A stretch of 64,000 nucleotides of DNA from Minisyncoccota bacterium (GTDB lineage: Bacteria > Patescibacteriota > Minisyncoccia > Phycocordibacterales > UBA918), in contig JAWKSP010000003.1 in the NCBI GenBank assembly GCA_041389025.1, forward strand, positions 4,065 through 68,064, in the 5' to 3' direction. The position numbers were made by a program, and so were the translations under genes. The notes beneath the pieces were generated by a model. The model saw only the letters and a program-made list of their open reading frames with translations. It had not been told where the DNA came from and searched no databases. Each line of letters opens with the position of its first letter. The first letter of the stretch is position 1. This document shows, piece after piece, positions 4,016 to 64,000 of the stretch.

Positions 4016-4123
4016 CAGTGCCAAAGATAAATAGTGGATTATAGCTGACGGTAGTCTTAGTGACACCTTAATGATACTTTGTAGTTTTTGGGAAAAGGGG
4101 TACTATAGTGTATCAATATTGAC

Positions 4124-5137
4124 ATGAGTTGGAATTTTACCCCAAAAATTGGAATTGATCTTGGTACGACCAGTATTTTGGTATTTGTCCCTGGGGAAGG
4201 GGTGGTACTTAATGAACCATCGGTGGTAGCCGTATCCGATGATAATAAAGTATTAGCGGTTGGAGCAGAGGCTAAGCGTATGATTGGTCGTACTCCTGAT
4301 ACGATTAGAGCTTATAGACCAATGAAAGACGGAGTAATTGCTGATTATCGAGTGACGGAAGCGATGCTTCGTTATTTTCTTCATAAGTCTTTGGGGAAAT
4401 TTAATATTTTTAAACCAGATGTGATGGTATCGGTGCCGGCTGGGGTAACTTCGACTGAGAGACGGGCGGTGGTAGAAGCGACTATAAAAGCTGGTGCTAA
4501 AAATGCCTATGTGGTAAAAGAACCAATTTTAGCGGCAATTGGTGCCGGTATACCAATTTATGAACCACAAGGACATATGATAATAGATATCGGTGGTGGA
4601 ACTATCGATGTGGCGGTGATTTCCCTAGGTGGAATTGTGGCTTCTAATTCAGTAAAATGTGCCGGTAACCGGATTGATGTAGCAATTGTGGACTATGTAA
4701 AGAAAACTCGTAATTTATCTATTGGTGAAAAGACTGCTGAGGAGATAAAGATAAAAATCGGTTCAGCTTTACCTTTAGAGGAAGAATTGGTGATGGAAAT
4801 AAAAGGTCGTGATGTAGTATCTGGCTTGCCACGAGTAACTGAAATGCGTACTAATGAAGTGGTACGAGCGATAAATCGTGAATTAAGAGAAATGATAAAA
4901 GCGATAAAGGATGTATTTCAAGAAACACCACCAGAATTAGCTTCAGATATTATTGATGGCGGAATAATTATGACTGGAGGTACTTCACAACTAAGAAACT
5001 TTGCCGAATTAGTCAAGCGTCGTACCGGAGTAAAAGCTAAGTTGGCTGACCAAGCCTTGTTTTGTGTGGTAACCGGTACTGGTGTGGCTCTTGAACATTT
5101 AGACACGTACAAACAAACAGTATTAGCTAAAAGATAG
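4124..5137 (+). CDS. Actin-like rod-shape protein MreB paralog (Mbl-like)
   Basis: IGIDLGTTSILVF...NEPSVVAV phosphate-1 motif with the MreB/actin fold throughout. It is a second copy, distinct from the mreBCD-linked mreB at 17910. Confidence 0.85.
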   Translation: MSWNFTPKIGIDLGTTSILVFVPGEGVVLNEPSVVAVSDDNKVLAVGAEAKRMIGRTPDTIRAYRPMKDGVIADYRVTEAMLRYFLHKSLGKFNIFKPDVMVSVPAGVTSTERRAVVEATIKAGAKNAYVVKEPILAAIGAGIPIYEPQGHMIIDIGGGTIDVAVISLGGIVASNSVKCAGNRIDVAIVDYVKKTRNLSIGEKTAEEIKIKIGSALPLEEELVMEIKGRDVVSGLPRVTEMRTNEVVRAINRELREMIKAIKDVFQETPPELASDIIDGGIIMTGGTSQLRNFAELVKRRTGVKAKLADQALFCVVTGTGVALEHLDTYKQTVLAKR

Positions 5138-30142: not shown

Positions 30143-30481
30143 ATGAAAAAAGTTCTTTTAGTAATTTTTTTGGTGTCACTGCCATTTTTGACAGGCTGTG
30201 GCCCGTTGCCGTATTACCCTACTAGTGTCCATGGTGGTATCCATGGTGGTGTATACCCTAGTGGAGTTGGGTACGGTAGGGTAGGTTACCCTGCCCACGG
30301 CGACTACCGCCCAATGAGGCGAGGGACGTCATTTAATTTTCCCGAAAGTGTTCAACACTTTCGGGGTAGGGTAAACGCCGTTGGGAATTTTCCAAATCAC
30401 GTCCCTACTCATGTAGGGAGAGATGGAATGTTTAGAAATAAGGGTGGATACACCCTTCCTCCACCGACACCAAGGTGGTAG
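30143..30481 (+). CDS. Gly/Pro/Tyr-rich small lipoprotein
   Basis: Signal peptide with an LTGC lipobox followed by GGIHGGVYPSGVGYGRVGYP repeats. Confidence 0.6.
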   Translation: MKKVLLVIFLVSLPFLTGCGPLPYYPTSVHGGIHGGVYPSGVGYGRVGYPAHGDYRPMRRGTSFNFPESVQHFRGRVNAVGNFPNHVPTHVGRDGMFRNKGGYTLPPPTPRW

Positions 30482-53970: not shown

Positions 53971-55425
53971 AAGACAGTGTGTCTAAAATTGGAAAAATAG
54001 TTTCTTTTTATGCTGGGGTGGCTAGCATAAAGGGTTTAAAAAATGTTTTTGTACATGAGGTTTTGAATGATGAAAATAACCAGCCAGCGGCAGTTGTGAT
54101 TGGTTTTGATAACGAATACGTGGAAGCACTTTTTGTAGATGAAAATTTTGATATAACCAAACCTGTATATGCTTCCGGTAAACCGTTCTCCATTTCGGTT
54201 TCTGATGCTTGGTTGGGTCGAGTGGTGGACGGGTTTGGTCGTTCGATTGATGGTTTTGCTCCGATTCCCGAGGGTAAAGAAATGTCAGTTTTTCTTCAGG
54301 CACCACCATTGATTCATAGAAAACCAATTACCAGACCGTTGATTACCGGAATTAAGATAATAGATGCTACCTTGCCTCTAGGCCGTGGTCAAAGAGAGTT
54401 AATTATCGGTGATAGAAAACTAGGTAAAACTACTTTAGCTACTGATGTGGTTTTAAATCAAAAAAAATCCAAAGATCCAGTTTATTGTGTTTATGTTTTA
54501 TGTGGACAAAGAACAGCAAAATTAGTTAATTTAAAAAAGCAACTAGAAAAAAACAATGCTACTACCTATACTATCGTCATAGCTGCTTTAGCGAGTGATT
54601 CTTATTTATCACAATATTTGGCTCCTTTTGTGGGTTGTACTATAGCTGAACATTTTCGTAATACTGGTCGTGATTCTTTGGTTGTTTATGATGATTTGTC
54701 AAAACATTCTAAGGTTTATAGAGACGTGTCACTTATTTTAAGACGTGTACCTGGTCGCGAGACTTACCCTGGAGATATATTTGCTTTACATGCTACTTTA
54801 CTTGAACGAGCGGCTCAATTATCGGATGATCAAAGTGGAGGTTCTTTGACGGCTTTACCGATAGTTGAAACTTTAGAGGGTGATATTACCGCTTTTATAC
54901 CAACTAACATTATATCGATTACCGATGGTCAGATTTATTTAGAAAAAGGGCTGTTTAGAAAGAAATATTTACCAGCGGTAAATATTGGTTTGTCGGTTTC
55001 AAGAGTAGGAGCGGTAGTGCAACCGCCGGTATTAAAATCTGTTCTGGGTGGAATTCGTTTAATTTTAGCTCAACACAAAGAGTTACAAAAGTTGTCTCAA
55101 CTTGAGACTGTGGTCAGTGAAGCTGCTAAAACAAATATTCATCGTGGAGATTTACTTTTAAAAATTTTAACTCAACCAAAACATACTTTGGTTACTTTTC
55201 CTGAACAAACTATTTTATTTTATGCAGTTGAAAGTGGTTTTTTTGATGATTTGTCTGAAAATGAGTGGTTAGATTTTATGCATTTTTTCCTCAGTTTATT
55301 AAGGAGTCGTTATCAGAAGGTCTTACAAAGTATAGCTTTAGGAGTTTTTGATGATAAATCAAAAATGAAAGTTAAAGCCATCGTTGATGATTTTAAATCA
55401 GAGTTTATAGTGCAAAAGAAACAAT

Positions 55426-55448
<23 letters not shown>
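53967..55448 (+). CDS. atpA: F1 ATP synthase alpha subunit
   Basis: GRGQRELIIGDRKLGKTT Walker A in the alpha context, with alpha-type N- and C-terminal domains. Confidence 0.85.
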
Positions 55449-57631
<2,183 letters not shown>

Positions 57632-57635
<4 letters not shown>

Positions 57636-57865
57636 AATGCTCTATCTCCAAATTAAAGACTACAACAATCATTGACGATGTTTTTAATGTTACAGTTCCA
57701 ACTTCAACTGGAGAAATAAACATCAGATCAAACCATGCTGAATATTACGGGGTTACAGTAACAGGTAACGTATTGGTGATAAAAAATGATCAAACCAAAC
57801 AAACTTTCGGTATAGATTCAGGGATTTGCATGGTAAAAGATAACGAAATTTTGATTATTCAATAA
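57632..57865 (+). CDS. atpC: F1 ATP synthase epsilon subunit, beta-sandwich domain only
   Basis: 77 aa in the operon-terminal position with an epsilon-N-domain-like pattern. The C-terminal helical hairpin is absent. Confidence 0.55.
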
Positions 57866-57895
57866 GATATGTGTTCATTATTTATGCTACCTAGA

Positions 57896-57966
57896 TTGAC
57901 AGACTAATCTAAGAAGTGTATTTAAACTACATTTGCTATTGACATTTTAGTAAAAAAGTGTATAAC
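57896..57966 (+). promoter_or_regulatory. Two tandem sigma70-like promoters (TTGACA-17-TATTTA and TTGACA-16-TATAAC)
   Basis: Both have a TTGACA -35 and share an aagtgtat spacer/-10 context upstream of the 58023 ORF. Confidence 0.45.
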
Positions 57967-58022
57967 ATTTAAGAATTTGTAATTTGATTTTCAGATAAAA
58001 CTTTTAAAAAAGGAGGCTGAAA

Positions 58023-58496
58023 ATGCCAATGTTCATGTTTGAAATCGTGCAATCTGTCAAAGGTTCTCCTAATCCATCAGTTTATGATGAAGGATTGTCG
58101 TATACACCAGAACTTAGCGGAGCAGCTATGGTTGTTTACTGGGAATTTTTAAACGAAGAGGTTGCCAAAAAACACATAATAATAACAGATCATATAACCG
58201 AAAAAATTCCAGCTAGTGATAATCCTATTTGGTCTAAATACAGACAACTTGGTTCTGGTCTTGATATTTTTTATATCAAGCAACTGACTCCAGAAGAGGA
58301 GCTTGAGGTCAAAATGGCCATGGCTCGGGTGTTGTATAAAATGTATTTTGAGCTACTAGATCAGGAAACATTTGAAAGATTAACCGGACTAACGGTTAGT
58401 GTGGAAACATTGACGGAGCCAACAGCGCGAGAAAAAGGCCTTTTTTATAAAGAAATAAATGAAATAGTAGCTGAGGAATTTTACTGTGCTGTATAG
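58023..58496 (+). CDS. Hypothetical protein
   Basis: 157 aa with a strong SD (aaaggaggctgaaaATG), followed by a terminator. No motif was recognised. Confidence 0.5.
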   Translation: MPMFMFEIVQSVKGSPNPSVYDEGLSYTPELSGAAMVVYWEFLNEEVAKKHIIITDHITEKIPASDNPIWSKYRQLGSGLDIFYIKQLTPEEELEVKMAMARVLYKMYFELLDQETFERLTGLTVSVETLTEPTAREKGLFYKEINEIVAEEFYCAV

Positions 58497-58516
58497 GTAG
58501 TGAAATTCCTTAGTTA

Positions 58517-58559
58517 AACCGATATTGCGTTACTTAGTCACACAATATCGGTTTTTTTT
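58517..58559 (+). terminator. Rho-independent terminator
   Basis: aaccgatattg / caatatcggtt stem followed by T8. Confidence 0.75.
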
Positions 58560-58564
58560 GTTTC

Positions 58565-58632
58565 AATCCTCGCAAAATTGCCTTATTTAGTATAGTATAA
58601 TTTGGTTTTAGACACTTACGTAGTATTTTATA
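58565..58632 (+). repeat. Left copy of a 68-bp imperfect direct repeat carrying promoter-like boxes (TTGCCT...TATAAT)
   Basis: aatcctcgcaaaattgccttatttagtatagtataatttggttttagaca...gtattttata. About 85% identical to 61804-61872. Both copies start right after a terminator T-run. Confidence 0.8.
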
Positions 58633-58659
58633 CAAAAGTTTTATTGATACACCATAATG

Positions 58660-58688
58660 TTGACTTATAAGCAAATATATATTATATT
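58660..58688 (+). promoter_or_regulatory. Sigma70-like promoter (TTGACT, 17-nt spacer, TATATT)
   Basis: Consensus boxes about 85 nt upstream of the 58771 ORF. Confidence 0.45.
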
Positions 58689-58703
58689 CGCGTGAGTAGG
58701 TTA

Positions 58704-58740
58704 AAGCCTTTTTCGAAAGGTTTTGTTATTTTTTGTTTTT
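58704..58740 (+). other. Leader hairpin plus U-rich tract (terminator/attenuator-like) in the 5' UTR of the 58771 gene
   Basis: AAGCCUUU-UUCG-AAAGGUUU (8 bp, one G-U) followed by uguuauuuuuuguuuuuu. It lies between the promoter and the SD. Confidence 0.4.
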
Positions 58741-58770
58741 TGAATTGTAATTACTTATTAGGAGATTGAG

Positions 58771-59391
58771 ATGAGTTCAAAATCATCGCAACAAAAAAAT
58801 GTTAAAGTCAAAATTCTGATTCGTGGAATTTACCCAATACTTATGAATCCAGCTACGGAAGAGCTATTAAACCAACTTCCCGGAGCAGGTATATCGGCGG
58901 GGGCAAAGAAACCGAATAAAGACAGGACTCGTGAAGAGATTGCGGAAAGTCGAGTGATTCGAGATAAGAAGACAAAGAAAGTCGGTATTCCTGTCGAGTA
59001 CATGTATTCTTGTCTTAAGGAGGCGGGTCGTCATGTAATCTTTGAGGGTAAGAAGAAGATTTCTACCGCTGATTCTACTTTATTGTTTTCGTTTATGTCT
59101 ATTGACGAGCAATTTTTTCCGTTTATTGATCAAGATAGCGGTTATGAAATAGATGTTAGACGCGGAGTTAATCGTACCACCAAAGGCGCACAAGCAATCG
59201 TGCGTCCAAGGTTCGATACTTGGGCTTTTTACCTTACTATTGAGGTCGACACCAATGAAATCAATCTGGAAAAAGTCCGTATGGTGTTTGATCAGGCTGG
59301 TAAGAAAATTGGCTTGGCGGATTTTCGCCCTACCTGTAATGGGCCTTTTGGTCGGTTTGTGGTGGAAGAATGGAAAGAGATAAGTGCATAA
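58771..59391 (+). CDS. Hypothetical 206-aa basic protein; weak resemblance to a RAMP/Cas6-like Gly-rich C-terminal loop
   Basis: SD aggag. N-terminal beta-strand-like VKVKILIRGIYPILMNP. C-terminal IGLADFRPTCNGPFGRFVV Gly-rich segment. The Cas6/RAMP resemblance is an unverified guess. No confident homology. Confidence 0.5.
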   Translation: MSSKSSQQKNVKVKILIRGIYPILMNPATEELLNQLPGAGISAGAKKPNKDRTREEIAESRVIRDKKTKKVGIPVEYMYSCLKEAGRHVIFEGKKKISTADSTLLFSFMSIDEQFFPFIDQDSGYEIDVRRGVNRTTKGAQAIVRPRFDTWAFYLTIEVDTNEINLEKVRMVFDQAGKKIGLADFRPTCNGPFGRFVVEEWKEISA

Positions 59392-59468
59392 GGTGCTGTA
59401 CTGTACGGTACTGACCTGTGCGGTACGGTAAAGTAATCTGAAGTACTCTAGTCAACTCTTTTCTAAGG

Positions 59469-59559
59469 AGCTCGGTCCCTGTGAAGTCCAACTTCACAAA
59501 CCGAGCTATGTTCCGAGGATGTGTATCCTCGCTGATGATTCCGAAAGGATGAAAACAGA
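59469..59559 (+). ncRNA. Structured module A: 16-bp bipartite hairpin, AUGUUC linker, 6-bp hairpin (loop UGUGUA), CUGAUGA, 3-bp GAAA-tetraloop hairpin, GAAA
   Basis: AGCUCGGU...UGUGAAGU-CCA-ACUUCACA...ACCGAGCU. Then CGAGGA-UGUGUA-UCCUCG CUGAUGA U-UCC-GAAA-GGA-U GAAA ACAGA. Confidence 0.55.
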
Positions 59560-59636
59560 ATCATATAATGTATAGGCTCTCTCGTGAGGCGTACTGTCTG
59601 GTACTGCTTTGTACCGAATTGTCCCGTGAAGTGCGG

Positions 59637-59724
59637 ATCCGTGTCCCTGTGCTTCTGCATAAACACGGATAGCTCTCAAGGTGTGTACCTTGACTGATGA
59701 TCCTAAAAAGGTGAAAGTAAAAGA
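59637..59724 (+). ncRNA. Structured module B: diverged copy with compensatory changes in both small helices
   Basis: AUCCGUGU...ACACGGAU hairpin, AGCUC linker, UCAAGG-UGUGUA-CCUUGA CUGAUGA U-CCU-AAAA-AGG-U GAAA GUAAAAGA. Both small helices covary relative to module A. Confidence 0.55.
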
Positions 59725-59805
59725 AATTCACACAGTCTCGTATTTTAAGCTTTTGACCTGTTTAGATGCGTGTACAGCCGTGAAGACTAGTATTCTCTTC
59801 TTTGG

Positions 59806-59908
59806 AGTCTGGTCCCTTTAAGTTATATTCATAAAATATAACTTAAAAACCAGACTATGTTCCGAGGATGTGTATCCTCGCTGATGATTCCGAAAGGATG
59901 AAAACAGA
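59806..59908 (+). ncRNA. Structured module C: the 3' 52 nt are identical to module A, while the upstream hairpin has a different, fully compensated sequence
   Basis: AGUCUGGU/ACCAGACU outer stem (A has AGCUCGGU/ACCGAGCU). The inner stem is 12 bp, UUAAGUUAUAUU/AAUAUAACUUAA, unrelated to A's. The AUGUUC...GAAAACAGA core is then identical. Confidence 0.55.
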
Positions 59909-59950
59909 GGTATTTTGAAAATCAAATATTCTCAAAACAGGAGAGAAATT

Positions 59951-61738
59951 ATGAAACATCTTGCTCAATTTTTTCCGTTTGAGCGTTATCCGTCAATGAC
60001 AGATAATCAAGAAGCAGCCTTTAATTTTCTGGATAGTAATCAAAATGGTGGTATTATCGAAGCTCCTACCGGTACTGGTAAGACATCAATCGGTTATACT
60101 TGGCTGTCTTCATTCAAAGGAACTCGTTTCTATTTGGTGCCAAATAAAACTTTGGTACAGCAAGTAGTAGCGATGTTTCCCGATACTAAACCAATGTACG
60201 GACGTAACGAACATTCGTGTCTGTATTACAAGGATCGTGATTTAAGAGCTGATGAGGTGCCTTGTTCGTTATTGCGTAATTGTCCTCATAGGGTACTTGA
60301 AAGTGGTGAAACATATAGTCCTGGTTCAACTCCTTGCCCGTATTTGAAACAAAAGTACGAGGCTGGTTTGGGTGGGGGTATTATAGTTGCTACTTACGCT
60401 TTTTATTTTTACTCTGTTTTTCTGTTAAGACAGTTTACACCGACAGCTGTAGTAGTAGATGAGGCGCATTCGATTGCTAGAAGTATACGAGCAACTCTAG
60501 AATTTCGTATTACTGACCGTAAGCTTGTTTCTATTATTAAAACGCTAAAATCAGTAAAAGCAAAACAGGCTGGATTGATGGAAAAGTTTTTAAGTGAAAT
60601 GAAACTTGTTGTAAAAAAGCGTTCGCCTGGCAAGAGAACCTCAGATTCTATATTGTCGTACGATGAAATTGAACGTCTACTTAAGTGTCTTAACAGCATG
60701 GATATCAAAGAAATACGCAATGACATTAATAATGCTGTTCGTAAGTCTATTATCAGTCCGGTAGATGATTTTGAGATGTTAAAACAGTTAGACGTTATAA
60801 CTCGTGAACTTTATCGATATGTTAAGTCTTTAGGGTTTTCCCTGCCGCCTAAGCAAGAAAAAAGTAAAAAAAGACTTAATCCACTCGCTTTTACTTATGC
60901 CTTTTGGACAAGGAAAAAAGAGGGTGACGGTAGTGTTTGCTGTGAACTTATTGTGAAGGATCATTTTGTAGCTGGTCTTATAAAAGCTATGCTTCCAGCG
61001 AACTGTCTGGCGTGTTCTGCAACTATTGTTGATCCTAAAATGCTTTCATTTGAAACTGGAATTGAGGGTAAGTTTTTATCCTTGGGTTCAGGTTTTGATA
61101 ATGAAAAAACAGCGGTATTAATGCCAACAGATACACCAAATCTGGCGGTTAAAGAGCGGAATAAAAAAGATGTTACTAAGGCAATACGTCTTATGGTTAG
61201 GTCTGCTAAAGATTTAGCTCATGAAAACAAGCGTTCAGTTATTTTAGTTGTGTCTGAACTGGAGAGGCAAAAGGTATTGAAGTTTGCCACAGAAGAAGGT
61301 TTGACAGTAGTGTCTAACAATGAGAAGGAGAGTGCCAGACAAGCAATTTCACGCTTTGTTCAAGGAGAGGGGATGTGTTTGGTAGGTACTGTTGCTAATT
61401 ATGGTCAGGGTATAGATTTACCTGATGGTATGGCACCGGTCATTTTCTATTTTCGTCCAGCCTACCCTAATCCCAATGATCCGCAAACTGTATTTGAAGA
61501 AAATAGATACGGTAACGCGAGATGGGGTATATGGAATTGGCGAGTTATGATCGATCTCTTACAAGTACGAGGAAGAAACGTTCGTTCTGTAAGTGATAAA
61601 GGTGTAACAATACTGGTATCACAACAGTTTAGGCGGTTTGCCCGCACAGCTCTTCCAGAATGGCTTAGACCAGCCTATGTTAACGATAAAAATTTTGCTG
61701 AATGTTTATCTGAGGCAAAAAGAATAATTGATAGTTAG
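59951..61738 (+). CDS. XPD/DinG (Rad3)-family Fe-S cluster DNA helicase
   Basis: Walker A IIEAPTGTGKTS, DEAH-type VVVDEAHS, a four-Cys cluster between them (CLYY...C...C...C) and the helicase C-terminal_2 motifs (VGTVANYGQGIDLPD...GR..R). Confidence 0.75.
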   Translation: MKHLAQFFPFERYPSMTDNQEAAFNFLDSNQNGGIIEAPTGTGKTSIGYTWLSSFKGTRFYLVPNKTLVQQVVAMFPDTKPMYGRNEHSCLYYKDRDLRADEVPCSLLRNCPHRVLESGETYSPGSTPCPYLKQKYEAGLGGGIIVATYAFYFYSVFLLRQFTPTAVVVDEAHSIARSIRATLEFRITDRKLVSIIKTLKSVKAKQAGLMEKFLSEMKLVVKKRSPGKRTSDSILSYDEIERLLKCLNSMDIKEIRNDINNAVRKSIISPVDDFEMLKQLDVITRELYRYVKSLGFSLPPKQEKSKKRLNPLAFTYAFWTRKKEGDGSVCCELIVKDHFVAGLIKAMLPANCLACSATIVDPKMLSFETGIEGKFLSLGSGFDNEKTAVLMPTDTPNLAVKERNKKDVTKAIRLMVRSAKDLAHENKRSVILVVSELERQKVLKFATEEGLTVVSNNEKESARQAISRFVQGEGMCLVGTVANYGQGIDLPDGMAPVIFYFRPAYPNPNDPQTVFEENRYGNARWGIWNWRVMIDLLQVRGRNVRSVSDKGVTILVSQQFRRFARTALPEWLRPAYVNDKNFAECLSEAKRIIDS

Positions 61739-61767
61739 TTGTAAAATTTAAGATAACTTTATCTTGA

Positions 61768-61802
61768 ATGGCAAGGAGTTTTTAACTCCTTGCCATTTTT
61801 TA
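61768..61802 (+). terminator. Rho-independent terminator after the helicase gene
   Basis: atggcaaggagtt-ttt-aactccttgccat followed by T6. Confidence 0.8.
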
Positions 61803-61803
61803 T

Positions 61804-61872
61804 AATCCTCGCAAAATTACTTTATTTAGTATAGTATAATTTGGTTTTAAACAACCTAAGTGGTATTTTATA
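61804..61872 (+). repeat. Right copy of the 68-bp direct repeat, abutting the alaS start codon
   Basis: aatcctcgcaaaattactttatttagtatagtataatttggttttaaaca...gtattttata. The alaS ATG is 10 nt downstream. Confidence 0.8.
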
Positions 61873-61881
61873 TTTGAAATT

Positions 61882-63828
61882 ATGAGTGGGAACGAAATCA
61901 GACAAAAATATTTGGAATTTATGGAGAAAAATGGTCACGCGGTCATACCGTCGGCTGCTTTGGTGCCCGAGAATGACCCAACTACGCTGTTTACCGGTAG
62001 TGGGATGCAGCCTTTGATTCCGTATTTGCAGGGTGAGGCGCACCCCAACGGGGTGCGCCTCACGGACTCTCAAAAATGTTTCCGCGCCAATGATATCGAA
62101 GAAGTGGGAGACAACCGTCACACTACTTTTTTTGAAATGCTTGGTAACTGGTCTTTGGGTGATTATTTTAAAAAAGAACAGTTGCGGTGGTTTTTTACCT
62201 ACCTAGTAGACGAGGTTGGACTTGATCCAGAGCGTATCTACGTCACTGTGTTTGCGGGAGACGAGAGTCTGGGTATTCCGGCTGATGAAGAATCGGTGGC
62301 TATTTGGCAAAAATTATTTAAAGAAAAGGGAATTGAAGCCAAAGCGGTGCATGTTGGGAGTGAAGAAGCAGGTTATGAGCTTGGTATGCAAGGTGGGCGT
62401 ATTTTCTACTATGACGCTGGTAAAAACTGGTGGAGTCGTTCTGGTACACCAGATAAGATGCCGGTAGGAGAGATTGGGGGTCCTGACAGTGAGGTTTTTT
62501 ATGATTTTGGTCCAGAATATGCCACTCATCCTGATTATAAGGATAAAGCGCCACATCCAAACAGTGACTCAGGACAGTTTGTGGAAATCGGCAACTCGGT
62601 CTTCATGGAGTATGTGAAGCAGGAAGATGGTAGTTTTACTAAGTTACCACAGCGTAATGTTGATTTTGGTGGCGGCTTAGAGCGTATTGCGGCGGCTAAA
62701 AATAACGACCCAGATATATTTAAGATAGATTTGCTGTGGAATGTGGTAGAAAAAATAGAAAATTTATCTAAGCGTACATACAAAGATAACTTAGTGGCTT
62801 TTCGAGTAATTACTGATCATATTCGGGGAGCAGTTTTTTTGATTGCCGATGGTGTCTTGCCCAGCAATACTGATCAAGGTTATTTTGTACGTCGTCTTTT
62901 ACGTCGCTCAGTCCGTTTTGCCGATCAGTTAGCGGTGCCGGCGGGGAAGTTTGCTGAGTTGGCAGCTGGAGTAATTGATACTTATGGTGAACATTATCCA
63001 GCCCTTAAGACTAAGGAAAAGGAGATTGAGTCAGTAATTGCTAAAGAAGAAGAGCAATTTAGAAGTACTTTAGAAAGTGGTCTGAAGCAGTTTAATAAAA
63101 TTTCCTTACAGGTACACGTGACTTCCAAGGAGGTTGATGGGAAGAAGGTGATCGATAAAAGTGTAGCACCAGTGGCAAAAAAAGCGATTAGTGCACAAAA
63201 TGCTTTTGATCTATACACTACTTATGGTTTTCCGATTGAACTCACCGAGGAGATTGCGACAGAGAAAGGCTTGGTGGTGGATCGAGTTGGTTTTGAAAAA
63301 TTGATGTTAGAACATAGAGATAAATCACGCGTTGGAGCCGAACAGAAATTTAAAGGAGGCTTGGCTGATCATTCAGAAAAGGTAGTGCAGTATCATACGG
63401 TTACTCACTTGCTGTTAGCTGGTCTCCGCAAGGAACTTGGTGATCATGTGCATCAAGCCGGCTCAAATATCACTGGTGAGCGCTTACGCTTTGATTTTAC
63501 GCACCCTGATAAGGTTCCTCGTGAGGTTTTGGATAAGGTAGAGGAGTATGTTAACAATGCCATTAAAATTGGTGGGGAAGTAACAATTGAAATGTTACCA
63601 AAGGAGGTGGCACAAGCCGATAAGACTATCGAAGCTAGTTTTTGGGAGCGATATCCGGATGAAGTTAAAGTTTATACTATCAAAGGAGCTGATAATACAG
63701 TGTTTTCTAAGGAGTTATGTGGCGGACCACACGTGAAAAGATTGGCAGAAATTTCTGGAAATTTTAGGATAACAAAAGAAGAATCTTCCTCGGCTGGAGT
63801 GAGAAGAGTTAAGGCGGTTTTGGAGTGA
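61882..63828 (+). CDS. alaS: Alanyl-tRNA synthetase (catalytic, tRNA-recognition and editing domains; no C-Ala domain)
   Basis: Class II catalytic core, editing-domain HxxxH (HTVTHLL) and CGGPHV zinc motifs. It ends at 648 aa. Confidence 0.9.
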   Translation: MSGNEIRQKYLEFMEKNGHAVIPSAALVPENDPTTLFTGSGMQPLIPYLQGEAHPNGVRLTDSQKCFRANDIEEVGDNRHTTFFEMLGNWSLGDYFKKEQLRWFFTYLVDEVGLDPERIYVTVFAGDESLGIPADEESVAIWQKLFKEKGIEAKAVHVGSEEAGYELGMQGGRIFYYDAGKNWWSRSGTPDKMPVGEIGGPDSEVFYDFGPEYATHPDYKDKAPHPNSDSGQFVEIGNSVFMEYVKQEDGSFTKLPQRNVDFGGGLERIAAAKNNDPDIFKIDLLWNVVEKIENLSKRTYKDNLVAFRVITDHIRGAVFLIADGVLPSNTDQGYFVRRLLRRSVRFADQLAVPAGKFAELAAGVIDTYGEHYPALKTKEKEIESVIAKEEEQFRSTLESGLKQFNKISLQVHVTSKEVDGKKVIDKSVAPVAKKAISAQNAFDLYTTYGFPIELTEEIATEKGLVVDRVGFEKLMLEHRDKSRVGAEQKFKGGLADHSEKVVQYHTVTHLLLAGLRKELGDHVHQAGSNITGERLRFDFTHPDKVPREVLDKVEEYVNNAIKIGGEVTIEMLPKEVAQADKTIEASFWERYPDEVKVYTIKGADNTVFSKELCGGPHVKRLAEISGNFRITKEESSSAGVRRVKAVLE

Positions 63829-63833
63829 TGGAT

Positions 63834-63898
63834 AGTGGGTGGATAGTATAAAATGGCCGCGGGCTTTGCCCGCGGCCATTTTATACTATCCACCCACT
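63834..63898. terminator. 31-bp perfect inverted repeat with a GC-rich core (bidirectional terminator-like), 3' of alaS
   Basis: agtgggtggatagtataaaatggccgcgggc-ttt-gcccgcggccattttatactatccacccact. Confidence 0.6.
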
Positions 63899-63939
63899 AA
63901 ATTTATTAAAATTCTAAATTTTAGTATAATAAAGCCACT

Positions 63940-64000
63940 ATGGCTCTTTTTTCTTCGGAAGACGAAACAAAATACGGAGTGATTATAGATATTGGGTCGG
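63940..64000 (+). CDS. 5' end of a downstream ORF (MALFSSEDETKYGVIIDIGS...), possibly an actin-like-fold ATPase
   Basis: ATG at 63940 in frame to the window end. The VIIDIGS phosphate-1-like motif is only a weak hint. Confidence 0.25.
   Translation, partial: MALFSSEDETKYGVIIDIGS

What the first reader, a model, noticed from the sequence alone, without database searches (positions are those of the whole stretch)
59392..59950. Three covarying structured-RNA modules with an invariant CUGAUGA...GAAA core between an unknown protein gene and a DinG helicase gene
The 560-nt spacer holds three related units (59469-59559, 59637-59724, 59806-59908). Each has a long upstream hairpin, a short linker, a 6-bp hairpin with loop UGUGUA, CUGAUGA, a 3-bp tetraloop hairpin bracketed by U...U, then GAAA. 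Base-paired positions vary with compensation (stem 1 CGAGGA/UCCUCG versus UCAAGG/CCUUGA; stem 2 UCC/GGA versus CCU/AGG). The upstream hairpins of A and C have unrelated sequences but both pair perfectly. The unpaired CUGAUGA, GAAA and UGUGUA are invariant. That is the signature of selection on RNA structure, not of a protein-coding or simple repeat element. The core matches the hammerhead-ribozyme catalytic core (CUGAUGA-helix II-GAAA), but I could not close a convincing stem III or cleavage triplet, so the ribozyme assignment is unproven. No RT, integrase or cas genes are present, so it does not fit retron, integron attC or CRISPR.
Basis: seen in the sequence. Interest (0 to 1): 0.85.

Follow-up and report, generated by a model that had tools for sequence, protein, structure and literature searches.

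The report
Hammerhead-processed guide-RNA array of a VIPR system
The three RNA modules are real type III hammerhead ribozymes that most likely cut apart a small array of guide RNAs for a CRISPR-related "VIPR" system (a minimal RAMP protein plus a DinG/XPD-like helicase) in a Candidate Phyla Radiation (CPR) bacterium; 2026 preprints describe this kind of system, so it is a new member rather than a new kind.

Summary
The spacer 59392-59950 holds three units, each with a hairpin, a 6-bp stem with loop UGUGUA, CUGAUGA, a short stem II and GAAA.

They are UGUU/AACA in units A and C and GCU/AGU in unit B, with cleavage after C59513, C59675 and C59862. Across 27 homologous units, 15 of 17 base pairs covary. 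A covariance model built without the window finds exactly these three sites (E 1e-16 to 7e-12).

The "unknown protein" (58771-59391) is a Vipr homologue (E 2.5e-14 to the solved SUSP1 Vipr) with a Cas7-like RAMP fold. Upstream of each hairpin lies an ~85-nt tract of 5-nt repeats, NG(U)NN, which is the vrRNA guide code. The "long hairpin" is the vrRNA 3' tail.

The cassette vipr, array, Fe-S-type DinG/XPD-like helicase recurs in at least 25 CPR loci in different neighbourhoods.

bioRxiv 10.64898/2026.04.26.720920 already reports VIPR systems, hammerhead-interspersed vrRNA arrays and helicase accessory genes. This is therefore a new member of a known but very recent kind. No target was found, and cleavage remains untested.

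The parts
58660..58688 (+). Promoter-like site (TTGACT-17-TATATT) upstream of vipr; candidate start of a single vipr-array-helicase transcript
   Evidence: Consensus scan only. No other + strand promoter-like site lies between here and 59979.
58771..59391 (+). vipr gene: 206-aa minimal RAMP (Vipr homologue)
   Evidence: A profile of 37 homologues hits PDB 36pp_D 'SUSP1 Vipr protein' at E = 2.5e-14 over residues 7-196. The AF2 model has pLDDT 88. Best Foldseek hits are Csm3/Cas7 of type III-A and type VII complexes, E about 5e-7. Invariant residues are R145-P146 and the G-loop G181..D184-F185-R186-P187..G191-F193-G194. There is no Pfam hit; phrog_4652 matches at E = 3e-18.
59392..59476 (+). vrRNA-1 guide tract: 17 pentamers N-G-U-N-N starting right after the vipr stop codon (GGTGC TGTAC TGTAC GGTAC TGACC TGTGC GGTAC GGTAA AGTAA ...). 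The last two pentamers form the 5' strand of the tail stem.
   Evidence: Register analysis. The GT-in-phase score of 9 is the highest of 25,566 windows of 85 nt on both strands.
59469..59507 (+). vrRNA-1 3' tail hairpin: 8-bp outer stem, CCC/A internal loop, 8-bp inner stem
   Evidence: MFE fold, z = -4.6. The outer stem covaries between units A, B, C and L008.
59509..59557 (+). Hammerhead A (type III). Stem III 59509-59512/59554-59557; predicted cleavage between C59513 and C59514.
   Evidence: Alignment A2 and pair counts. Independent model R2: 65.8 bits, E = 3e-16.
59560..59644 (+). vrRNA-2 guide tract. Clear pentamers run from about 59575 (... CGTAC TGTCT GGTAC TGCTT TGTAC CGAAT TGTCC CGTGA AGTGC GGATC CGTGT), in the same register relative to the CCC bulge.
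   Evidence: GT-in-phase score 8, second highest in the window.
59637..59670 (+). vrRNA-2 3' tail hairpin (8-bp outer stem, CCC/A loop, 5-bp inner stem)
59672..59718 (+). Hammerhead B (type III). Stem III is only 3 bp (59672-59674/59716-59718); predicted cleavage between C59675 and U59676.
   Evidence: Model R2: 50.8 bits, E = 7e-12.
59729..59813 (+). vrRNA-3 guide tract (17 pentamers, more degenerate than tracts A and B)
   Evidence: score 6; only about 0.4% of windows score 6 or more
59806..59856 (+). vrRNA-3 3' tail hairpin (8-bp outer stem, CCC/A loop, 13-bp inner stem)
   Evidence: inverted repeat I3; z = -5.6
59858..59906 (+). Hammerhead C (type III), identical in its core to A. Predicted cleavage between C59862 and C59863, which leaves the ribozyme body on the 5' end of the helicase mRNA.
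   Evidence: Model R2: 67.5 bits, E = 1e-16.
59951..61738 (+). vap-type accessory gene: 595-aa SF2 helicase of the DinG/XPD kind with four invariant cysteines (C90, C105, C111, C129) between Walker A and the DEAH box
   Evidence: Pfam Helicase_C_2, ResIII and DEAD. PADLOC typeIV_DinG PDLC01439, E = 6e-41 over the full length. NCBIfam DinG/YoaA/rad3 only 1e-9 to 4e-11. Cysteines invariant in 20 of 20 homologues. Found next to vipr in every CPR locus long enough to show it.
61766..61798 (+). Intrinsic-terminator-like hairpin (15 bp plus a T run) after the helicase gene; likely end of the operon

Best explanation
The region 58660-61798 is a chromosomal VIPR (Viral Interference Programmable Repeat) cassette of a Candidatus Paceibacterota (CPR) bacterium. 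It consists of the vipr gene, a three-unit vrRNA array, and a DinG/XPD-like helicase accessory gene.

Shown here:
- Protein X is a Vipr-family RAMP.
- Each unit consists of (i) an ~85-nt tract of 5-nt repeats N-G-Y-N-N, (ii) a conserved-structure tail hairpin, and (iii) a type III hammerhead whose three helices covary and whose catalytic core is intact.

Inferred:
- The cassette is transcribed as one RNA from about 58690 to 61798.
- The hammerheads cut co-transcriptionally after C59513, C59675 and C59862. Each vrRNA therefore ends just after its tail hairpin with a 2',3'-cyclic phosphate, and the ribozyme body stays on the 5' end of the next fragment (the last one on the helicase mRNA).
- The 5' ends are then trimmed back to the part protected by protein.

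By homology with SUSP1 VIPR (bioRxiv 10.64898/2026.04.26.720920 and 10.64898/2026.04.26.720927):
- One Vipr protomer binds each pentamer.
- It flips out the G-Y bases and presents the two variable bases.
- These read double-stranded DNA with one target base skipped per pentamer.
- The filament marks the target.

Speculative: the Fe-S helicase is recruited to unwind or clear the target, presumably DNA of a phage or other mobile element.
For: Vipr membership:
- The HMM profile of 37 homologues matches PDB 36pp_D at E = 2.5e-14 over residues 7-196.
- In that alignment, SUSP1 residues reported to hold G2, G1 and Y3 (R138, D177, W178, R179) fall on R145, D184, F185 and R186. These are invariant or nearly invariant in this family.
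- The predicted fold is Cas7/Csm3-like.

Guide tracts:
- All three tracts share one register relative to the tail bulge. Position 2 is G in 34 of 51 pentamers (p about 4e-9) and position 3 is T in 32 of 51, while positions 4 and 5 vary.
- Tracts A and B score highest of 25,566 windows of 85 nt.
- The same register holds in related loci (G 139 of 258, T 150 of 258, positions 4 and 5 near uniform) and in L008.

Hammerheads:
- In 27 units from 11 loci, 91.5% of cells are paired against 34-49% when the partners are slid. Fifteen of 17 pairs show changes on both sides.
- Stem III was not used to select the units, and 6 of its 7 pairs show compensatory changes.
- C3, U4, G5, A6, G8, A9, G12-A14 and A15.1-U16.1 are invariant, and H17 is never G in 27 of 27 units.
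- Leave-out model R2 finds only the three window units.
- Rfam RF00008 reaches its gathering score in homologous locus L025, 48.8 against 48.5 bits, and gives 25.9 bits in L008.

Cassette:
- vipr, a 0.4-2.6-kb non-coding array and the helicase occur together in at least 25 CPR loci. In the loci whose neighbours were listed the flanking housekeeping genes differ.
- A promoter-like site lies before vipr and a terminator after the helicase, with none in between.

Literature: VIPR systems, hammerhead ribozyme-interspersed vrRNA arrays (confirmed there by small-RNA sequencing) and helicase or nuclease accessory genes are described in the preprint.
Against: - Rfam's Hammerhead_3 model gives no hit on the window's own units, even at E <= 10.
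- MFE folding predicts stems I and II and the tail but not stem III. It pairs CUG of the core with CAG downstream instead.
- Stem III is only 4 bp in A and C and 3 bp in B.
- Positions 10.1/11.1 are U.U in all three window units instead of the G-C described as highly conserved in canonical hammerheads (PMC4209133).
- The first G of the GGY motif is poorly conserved here (T 21, G 11, A 10, C 9), so the SUSP1 recognition code may not transfer exactly.
- No target was found with the 1-nt-skip rule in the window, in viral contigs or in metagenomes. One metagenome scan found nothing. The other gave 9 hits, none extending significantly beyond the ten pentamers the pattern forced; the one examined further (L094) is antisense inside a permease-like membrane-protein gene.
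- There are no expression or cleavage data for this organism.
- I could not see the preprint's figures or tables, so the VIPR type of this clade is unknown.
Confidence: 0.85

Rival explanations
1. The hammerhead-like modules no longer cleave. They serve as structural or protein-binding handles of the vrRNAs, for example a kink-turn-like G.A/A.G/U.U motif, and the RNA ends are made by host RNases.
For: - U.U replaces the canonical G10.1-C11.1 pair in all three window units and in 15 of 27 related units.
- Stem III is very short here.
- Rfam gives weak sub-threshold matches to box C/D sRNA sR55 (E = 0.13 and 0.52).
- Some copies elsewhere carry core changes, such as CCGAUGA in L016 and L027i.
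Against: - Every catalytic-core position is invariant in the 27 units of alignment A2, including those with no role in a kink-turn (C3, U4, A14, U16.1).
- H17 is never G.
- All three helices covary, including stem III, which a binding handle would not need.
- U.U and G-C alternate within single arrays (L017, L022), as expected for a tolerated variant.
- The preprint reports small-RNA sequencing support for processing in hammerhead-interspersed arrays.
Confidence: 0.07
2. The hammerheads are generic operon-processing ribozymes between two genes, as reported in other bacterial and phage operons, and are unrelated to guide RNAs. The 5-nt periodicity upstream would be incidental.
For: From my own knowledge, not checked here: tandem hammerheads between genes have been reported in bacteria and prophages. 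No target of the putative guides was found.
Against: - The periodicity is in one fixed register relative to the tail in all three units and in independent loci. It has conserved G-Y and variable N-N, exactly as defined for vrRNAs.
- It is the strongest such signal in the 64 kb.
- The neighbouring gene is a Vipr homologue.
- Sister loci keep the tracts and tails but lack hammerheads, so the tracts are the constant part and the ribozyme the variable part.
Confidence: 0.04
3. It is an unconventional CRISPR array of a reduced type IV-like system. The repeat would be tail plus hammerhead, the spacers the intervening tracts, with Cas7-like and CasDinG-like proteins.
For: - The best PADLOC match of the helicase is a type IV-associated DinG profile (E = 6e-41).
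- Protein X has a Cas7-like fold.
- The units repeat at 162 and 187 nt.
Against: - No cas1, cas2, cas5, cas6 or csf1 genes are present among the neighbours.
- The 'spacers' are 5-nt periodic, not free sequence.
- tblastn of the helicase against 72,556 plasmids gives no match. From my own knowledge, type IV-A loci are mostly plasmid-borne.
- The second type IV DinG profile matches only weakly (1.7e-5).
- Foldseek's top hits are Csm3 and type VII Cas7, not Csf2.
Confidence: 0.02
4. It is a cis-regulatory leader of the helicase gene, or remnants of a mobile element's terminal repeats.
For: The array lies directly upstream of the helicase start codon, and the cassette sits in different neighbourhoods in different genomes.
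Against: - The number of units varies (2 in L008, 3 here, at least 9 in L027), and units also occur downstream of the helicase (L017, L032).
- No transposase or integrase is present.
- No similar DNA is found in the phage collection.
Confidence: 0.02

Closest known systems
VIPR systems (Vipr RAMP + vrRNA + vap gene), including 'hammerhead ribozyme-interspersed arrays'; bioRxiv 10.64898/2026.04.26.720920 and 10.64898/2026.04.26.720927
   Same: - A Vipr homologue of about 200 aa with a conserved thumb arginine and G-loop D-(F/W)-R-P.
- Guide tracts of 5-nt repeats with conserved G-Y and variable N-N.
- A structured 3' tail.
- A two-gene cassette with an accessory gene; helicases are listed among the accessory genes.
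- Hammerheads between vrRNAs.
   Different: - The characterised systems (SUSP1, P. fulva; type II) are phage or prophage borne, have a pseudoknot tail, a strict GGY motif and DNA-binding accessory proteins.
- This one is chromosomal in a CPR bacterium, between the atp operon and alaS.
- Its tail is a bulged hairpin.
- The first G of the motif is relaxed, and SUSP1 H17, which reads G1, aligns with Asn26 here.
- It carries an Fe-S-type helicase.
- The preprint's hammerhead examples are from types I and V. Whether this helicase clade is one of them could not be checked.
Hammerhead ribozyme type III (Rfam RF00008)
   Same: - Topology: stem III open, stems I and II capped.
- Full catalytic core, A15.1-U16.1 and H17.
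- Loop 1 and loop 2 have invariant bases (UG.. and .AAA), which suggests a tertiary contact.
   Different: - U.U at 10.1/11.1 in the window units.
- Stem III is only 3-4 bp and abuts the vrRNA tail helix (one unpaired A between them).
- The window units score below the reporting limit of RF00008.
Type IV-A CRISPR-Cas (Cas7 filament plus CasDinG helicase)
   Same: An RNA-guided RAMP filament is encoded next to a DinG-family SF2 helicase, and the helicase's best defence-profile match is 'typeIV_DinG'.
   Different: - No CRISPR array and no Cas5, Cas6 or Cas8-like genes.
- No BLAST-level similarity to plasmid-borne helicases.
- Four invariant cysteines are present. From memory, CasDinG has only a vestigial Fe-S domain.
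Type III and type VII Cas7 (Csm3) backbone subunits
   Same: They are the best structural matches of the protein X model: RRM core, thumb and G-loop.
   Different: - Only 12-17% sequence identity.
- Protein X acts without the other effector subunits.
- Its repeat is 5 nt rather than 6 nt.
Synthetic ribozyme-gRNA-ribozyme (RGR) cassettes for Cas9 guides (recalled from memory)
   Same: Self-cleaving ribozymes release guide RNAs from a longer polymerase transcript.
   Different: RGR cassettes are engineered, with a hammerhead 5' and an HDV ribozyme 3' of each guide. Here a single natural hammerhead lies 3' of each guide.

Membership tests
Hammerhead ribozyme, type III | Conserved core C3-U4-G5-A6-N7-G8-A9 and G12-A13-A14 | tested here: met
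   CUGAUGA and GAA are exact in all three window units and invariant, except N7, in the 27 units of alignment A2.
Hammerhead ribozyme, type III | A15.1-U16.1 pair and a non-G nucleotide (H17) 5' of the scissile bond | tested here: met
   The U-A pair is invariant in 27 of 27 units. H17 is C, A or U in 27 of 27 units and C in the window.
Hammerhead ribozyme, type III | Three helices around the core supported by covariation, with helix III open | tested here: met
   91.5% of cells are paired against 34-49% for slid controls, and 15 of 17 pairs show changes on both sides. In stem III, 6 of 7 pairs are compensatory. In the window itself stem III is only 3-4 bp.
Hammerhead ribozyme, type III | G10.1-C11.1 pair closing stem II | tested here: not met
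   The window units have U.U. Eleven of the 27 related units have G-C and 15 have U.U. This pair is highly conserved but not universal in natural hammerheads (PMC4209133, PMC2837043).
Hammerhead ribozyme, type III | Score at or above the Rfam RF00008 gathering threshold | tested here: not met
   There is no hit on the window at gathering or at E <= 10. A homologous unit in L025 reaches 48.8 against 48.5 bits, and L008 unit b scores 25.9 bits.
Hammerhead ribozyme, type III | Site-specific self-cleavage | not testable with these tools
   Requires in vitro transcription or RNA end mapping.
VIPR system | Vipr protein: a minimal RAMP with thumb and G-loop, homologous to characterised Viprs | tested here: met
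   E = 2.5e-14 to PDB 36pp_D (SUSP1 Vipr) over nearly the full length. The fold is Cas7-like. R145, D184, F185 and R186 align with SUSP1 R138, D177, W178 and R179.
VIPR system | vrRNA with at least 4 tandem pentamers of YNNGG or a related consensus (conserved G-Y, variable N-N) | tested here: met
   Each unit has 17 in-register pentamers. G is found at position 2 in 67% and T at position 3 in 63%, with positions 4 and 5 variable. The first G is relaxed, so the pattern is closer to the 'YNNNG' variant named in the preprint.
VIPR system | Conserved structured 3' tail after the repeat tract | tested here: met
   A bulged hairpin with a covarying 8-bp outer stem and a CCC/A loop is present in all three units and in L008. 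It differs from the SUSP1 pseudoknot.
VIPR system | Minimal locus with an adjacent accessory (vap) gene and no CRISPR array or other cas genes | tested here: met
   The helicase lies directly downstream here and in at least 25 CPR loci. The neighbours are the atp operon and alaS.
VIPR system | Vipr-vrRNA complex that binds DNA by the gapped (1-nt skip) code, with an identifiable natural target | tested here: inconclusive
   No target was found in the window, in viral contigs or in metagenomes. CPR phages are poorly sampled, and the search required 10 perfect pentamers. Biochemistry is not testable here.
CRISPR-Cas type IV | CRISPR array plus Csf1, Cas7, Cas5 and Cas6 effector genes | tested here: not met
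   Only one RAMP gene is present. The repeats are not CRISPR-like; the minus-strand CRISPR-DR25 hits are weak (E = 0.94 and 0.17) and fall on stem II. There are no further cas genes.

The most novel reading that the evidence does not exclude
The CPR clade (vipr, array, Fe-S DinG/XPD-like helicase) may be a distinct, uncharacterised VIPR branch in three respects:
- The recognition code is relaxed to N-G-Y-N-N. The G1-reading residue is replaced, so the pairing or skip rule could differ.
- The hammerhead is fused to the guide's tail helix: a 3-4-bp stem III stacks on the tail, with U.U at 10.1/11.1. Ribozyme cleavage could then be coupled to tail folding or Vipr loading.
- The helicase is the effector, which would be a functional parallel to, or an evolutionary link with, type IV-A CRISPR interference.

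In HH-less sister loci the place after the vrRNA tail where the hammerhead would sit holds a different conserved hairpin module with no Rfam match. That module could be another processing element.
Probability: 0.2. Interest if true: 0.65.

Novelty: new member of a known kind. Interest (0 to 1): 0.45.

Why it matters
VIPR is a months-old discovery: an RNA-guided DNA-recognition system proposed to predate CRISPR. This locus gives a compact natural example (about 3.1 kb) from an ultra-small CPR bacterium.

In it, guide maturation appears to need no protein, because hammerheads do the cutting. The accessory gene is an Fe-S helicase whose role in VIPR is still unknown.

It offers defined, testable cleavage sites and three natural guides. 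It also carries a relaxed repeat consensus that could show how far the recognition code can vary.

For genome annotation, it shows that spacers containing a CUGAUGA...GAAA core next to a small unannotated gene should be checked for 5-nt periodic guide tracts and Vipr-like RAMPs.

Tried and rejected
- Rfam, whole window at gathering and the spacer at E <= 10: no hammerhead hit. Only chance-level hits to CRISPR-DR25, box C/D sR55 and miRNA families.
- tRNA or tmRNA: none in the window.
- DNA similarity of 58700-60400 to 50,697 phage records: none. Exact-protein look-up of protein X: not on record.
- Kink-turn or box C/D reading of CUGAUGA-U...U-GAAA: rejected. G-C replaces U.U in relatives, and core positions irrelevant to a kink-turn are invariant.
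- Target prediction with the 1-nt-skip rule:
  - No hit above shuffled controls in the window.
  - Three 10-pentamer patterns found nothing in viral contigs.
  - The metagenome scan for guide B found nothing.
  - The scan for guide A gave 9 hits with 4-8 of 14 further bases matching (chance is about 3.5). Four of the 9 are the same locus (near-identical sequence), and in L094 the match lies antisense inside a permease-like membrane-protein gene. I rejected these as chance matches.
- Period-5 power of G alone as a detector in relatives: the signal is uneven, with 0-14% of windows above the background 99th percentile. Register-anchored counts were clearer.
- A second high GT-periodicity site at 30201-30295 is a Gly/Tyr-rich coding ORF, not a vrRNA.
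- Helicase against PDB sequences gave no hit at E <= 0.001, and against plasmids gave no tblastn hit. A close relationship to solved or plasmid-borne CasDinG is therefore not supported.
- Strain-level array turnover: contigs carrying identical Vipr proteins (L001-L003, L004-L006) have 100% identical arrays, so this test was uninformative.
- The preprint's supplementary tables and figures are not held, so I could not assign the VIPR type.
Full report
**1. The observation**

The repeat finder returns the 35-nt core three times, at 59520, 59682 and 59869. Copy B is 74% identical to copies A and C. CTGATGA-N12-GAAA occurs exactly three times in 64 kb, all here. With up to one mismatch there are 7 matches against 2.07 expected, and 0 of 100 shuffles reached 7.

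There are no tRNAs and no Rfam family at gathering. At E <= 10 the spacer gives only chance-level hits to CRISPR-DR25, box C/D sR55 and miRNA families, and no hammerhead family.

**2. The ribozyme closes**

- In A and C, U59509-G-U-U59512 pairs with A59554-A-C-A59557, and C59513 is H17.
- In B, G59672-C-U59674 pairs with A59716-G-U59718, and C59675 is H17.

The protein-based searches described below brought in related loci. A pattern scan of these found 24 more units with the same layout, always on the strand of the neighbouring genes. In those units stem III is 6-7 bp (for example UUCUGAU/AUCGGAA).

On the 27-unit alignment, the three-helix structure has 91.5% of cells paired against 34-49% when the 3' partners are slid by 1-3 columns. 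Fifteen of 17 pairs show changes on both sides, and no shuffle reaches the observed covariation score.

I selected the units by requiring stems I and II, so those two helices are biased. Stem III was not used for selection, and 6 of its 7 pairs show compensatory changes; the seventh is the invariant A15.1-U16.1 pair.

All core positions are invariant in the 27-unit alignment, and H17 is never G (27 of 27; chance about 4e-4). The first two bases of loop 1 (UG) and the last three of loop 2 (AAA) are also invariant, as expected for a loop-loop tertiary contact.

A covariance model built from 26 units of other loci, with no window sequence, finds exactly the three window units on both strands (67.5, 65.8 and 50.8 bits; E = 1e-16 to 7e-12) and nothing else up to E = 10.

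Rfam's Hammerhead_3 reaches its gathering score on the homologous unit of L025 (48.8 against 48.5 bits) and gives 25.9 bits on L008 unit b.

Caveats for the window's own units:
- Stem III is only 3-4 bp.
- Positions 10.1/11.1 are U.U rather than the G-C that is highly conserved in canonical hammerheads. U.U recurs in 15 of 27 units and alternates with G-C within single arrays.
- MFE folding predicts the tail, stem I and stem II but not stem III.
- In the window and L008 the tail helix ends zero or one nucleotide before stem III. Coaxial stacking on the tail could compensate for the short stem, but that is inference.

**3. The context changes the meaning**

The window is a chromosome of a Candidatus Paceibacterota (CPR) bacterium (P0001 at 100% identity). 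It carries the ATP synthase operon upstream and alaS downstream of the cassette.

The 206-aa protein has no Pfam, NCBIfam or PADLOC family, but it has 38 homologues. Their profile matches one solved structure, 36pp_D "SUSP1 Vipr protein", at E = 2.5e-14 over nearly the full length.

The AF2 model (pLDDT 88) is most similar to Csm3/Cas7 subunits of type III-A and type VII CRISPR complexes.

The helicase (59951-61738) is an SF2 DinG/XPD-type enzyme.
- Pfam gives Helicase_C_2, ResIII and DEAD.
- The best defence profile is typeIV_DinG, E = 6e-41 over the full length.
- Housekeeping DinG, YoaA and rad3 models give only 1e-9 to 4e-11.
- Four cysteines between Walker A and the DEAH box are invariant in 20 of 20 homologues. 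From my own knowledge, that is where XPD/DinG helicases carry their Fe-S cluster.
- It has no BLAST-level relative among plasmids and no phmmer hit in the PDB.

**4. VIPR**

Two 2026 preprints describe Viral Interference Programmable Repeat systems. These consist of a Vipr protein of about 20 kDa (an early-branching RAMP), vrRNAs made of 9-16 YNNGG pentamers followed by a conserved 3' tail, and an accessory vap gene.

One Vipr protomer binds each pentamer. It sequesters G1, G2 and Y3 and presents N4 and N5, which pair with DNA while every third target base is skipped.

[quoted passage not shown] It also states that types III-V carry predicted nucleases or helicases.

**5. The guide tracts are here**

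I anchored the sequence upstream of each tail on the CCC bulge. All three tracts (59392-59476, 59560-59644, 59729-59813) then fall into one 5-nt register:
- Position 2 is G in 34 of 51 pentamers.
- Position 3 is T in 32 of 51.
- Positions 4 and 5 are variable.

After correction for the five phases, p is about 4e-9 for G and 1e-4 for T. Tracts A and B have the highest in-phase GT scores of all 25,566 windows of 85 nt on both strands. Only about 0.4% of windows score as high as tract C.

The same register and composition hold upstream of the tails in related loci (G 139 of 258, T 150 of 258, positions 4 and 5 near uniform) and in the closest relative L008, which carries different N-N bases.

Position 1, the first G of GGY, is relaxed here (T 21, G 11, A 10, C 9). 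In the profile alignment, SUSP1 H17, which reads G1, aligns with the nearly invariant Asn26. The residues that read G2 and Y3 are conserved.

The hammerhead sits between one vrRNA and the next.

**6. The cassette**

The order vipr, then a 0.4-2.6-kb non-coding array, then the helicase recurs in every CPR locus long enough to show it (at least 25 loci; one, L028, is divergent). In the loci whose neighbours were listed, the flanking housekeeping genes differ.

Vipr homologues outside the CPR (Proteobacteria, Planctomycetes and others) lack this helicase.

Hammerheads occur in 12 of about 30 CPR arrays. The others keep the tracts and GGGGC...GCC tails but have a different hairpin module after the tail and no Rfam ribozyme.

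In the window a promoter-like site precedes vipr (58660-58688) and a strong terminator-like hairpin follows the helicase (61766-61798), with neither in between. This fits one precursor RNA cut by the ribozymes.

**7. Mechanism**

Shown:
- Vipr homology and RAMP fold.
- Periodic guide tracts and covarying tails.
- Intact, covarying hammerheads.
- Conserved gene order.

Inferred:
- A single transcript is made and self-cleaves after C59513, C59675 and C59862.
- The vrRNA 3' ends are the 5' strand of stem III with a cyclic phosphate.
- The ribozyme bodies are carried on the 5' ends of the next vrRNA and of the helicase mRNA, and the 5' ends are then trimmed.

By homology: a Vipr filament forms on the pentamers and reads DNA in a gapped manner.

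Speculative: the helicase is recruited to the bound target.

**8. Targets**

[quoted passage not shown] One metagenome scan found nothing.

The other metagenome scan returned 9 hits that do not extend significantly beyond the forced part. Four are the same locus (near-identical sequence), and in L094 the match lies antisense inside a permease-like membrane-protein gene. I treat these as chance. The targets remain unknown.

**9. Verdict**

However, the element is the processing part of a VIPR guide array, a kind of system already published as preprints in April-June 2026, including the hammerhead-interspersed architecture and helicase accessory genes. This locus is a new member of that kind.

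Its particular features remain open:
- The CPR chromosomal setting.
- The relaxed N-G-Y-N-N code.
- The hairpin tail abutting a minimal stem III.
- U.U at 10.1/11.1.
- The Fe-S helicase.

I could not check the VIPR type of this clade because the preprint's figures and tables are not held.

Noticed in passing
window 57240-57420: The ATP synthase beta gene is split (56274-57287 and 57375-57635, same frame). The sequence reads as if one base were missing near 57268 (TATCAGCT where TATCCAGCT would give GIYPAVD) and the frame is restored near 57390. Two compensating indels therefore put about 120 nt out of frame. This is either an assembly or polishing error or a real lesion.
   Followed up: partly
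window 30201-30295: This is the only other place in the window with a high in-phase GT pentamer score (8). It lies inside ORF 30143-30481, which encodes a Gly/Tyr-rich small protein, so it is coding low complexity and not a vrRNA.
   Followed up: yes
L002 6700-7560; L007 6600-7400; L004 6600-7330: Sister arrays of the same vipr-helicase cassette have pentamer tracts and GGGGC...GCC tail hairpins but no hammerhead. Many units instead carry a conserved long imperfect hairpin after the tail (UCUUUCC-GAG ... AT-rich loop ... CNAGAAAGA). It has no Rfam match. It could be another processing element, a terminator/promoter pair, or a protein-binding site.
   Followed up: partly
L017 7854-7940; L032 7103-7160: Hammerhead units also occur downstream of the helicase gene, so arrays can flank the helicase on both sides. 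L017 5594-5680 and 7854-7940 carry about 29-nt insertions relative to the 58-nt model.
   Followed up: no
L016 5626-5683; L027 5882-5939: Some array copies have a core change (CCGAUGA or CCGACGA, that is U4 to C), and one has a disrupted stem II. These are possibly decaying, inactive ribozyme copies within otherwise intact arrays.
   Followed up: no
L028 (helicase 3761-1992 on the minus strand, vipr 4046-4612): In one CPR locus the helicase lies upstream of vipr on the opposite strand, instead of downstream on the same strand.
   Followed up: no
L029 (contig CAYMCA010000062.1): A bin labelled Candidatus Woesearchaeota archaeon carries the same vipr-array-helicase cassette as the CPR bacteria. 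This is either a binning error or transfer across domains.
   Followed up: no
window 58023-58496: A 157-aa ORF just upstream of the cassette has no family in Pfam, NCBIfam, PADLOC or PHROGs and no homologue in any of the 86 related loci. It is probably not part of the system.
   Followed up: partly
MG592631.1 28110-28658 (hit H1): Vibrio phage 1.266.O._10N.286.52.F9 encodes a distant homologue of protein X (27% identity, annotated hypothetical). This fits the viral distribution reported for Vipr. Protein X also matches phrog_4652 (unknown function).
   Followed up: no
window 1-64000: GC skew is positive in every 2-kb bin of the window (cumulative skew rises monotonically), and in the part inspected (54000-64000) the long, family-matched ORFs are all on the + strand. 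The window therefore lies within one replichore with strong strand bias.
   Followed up: no
window 59696-59717 (minus strand); L008 2249-2270 (minus strand): The reverse complement of hammerhead stem II plus its flanks gives weak matches to Rfam CRISPR-DR25 (E = 0.94 and 0.17). I judged this a coincidence of a short hairpin flanked by GAUGA and UUUC.
   Followed up: yes
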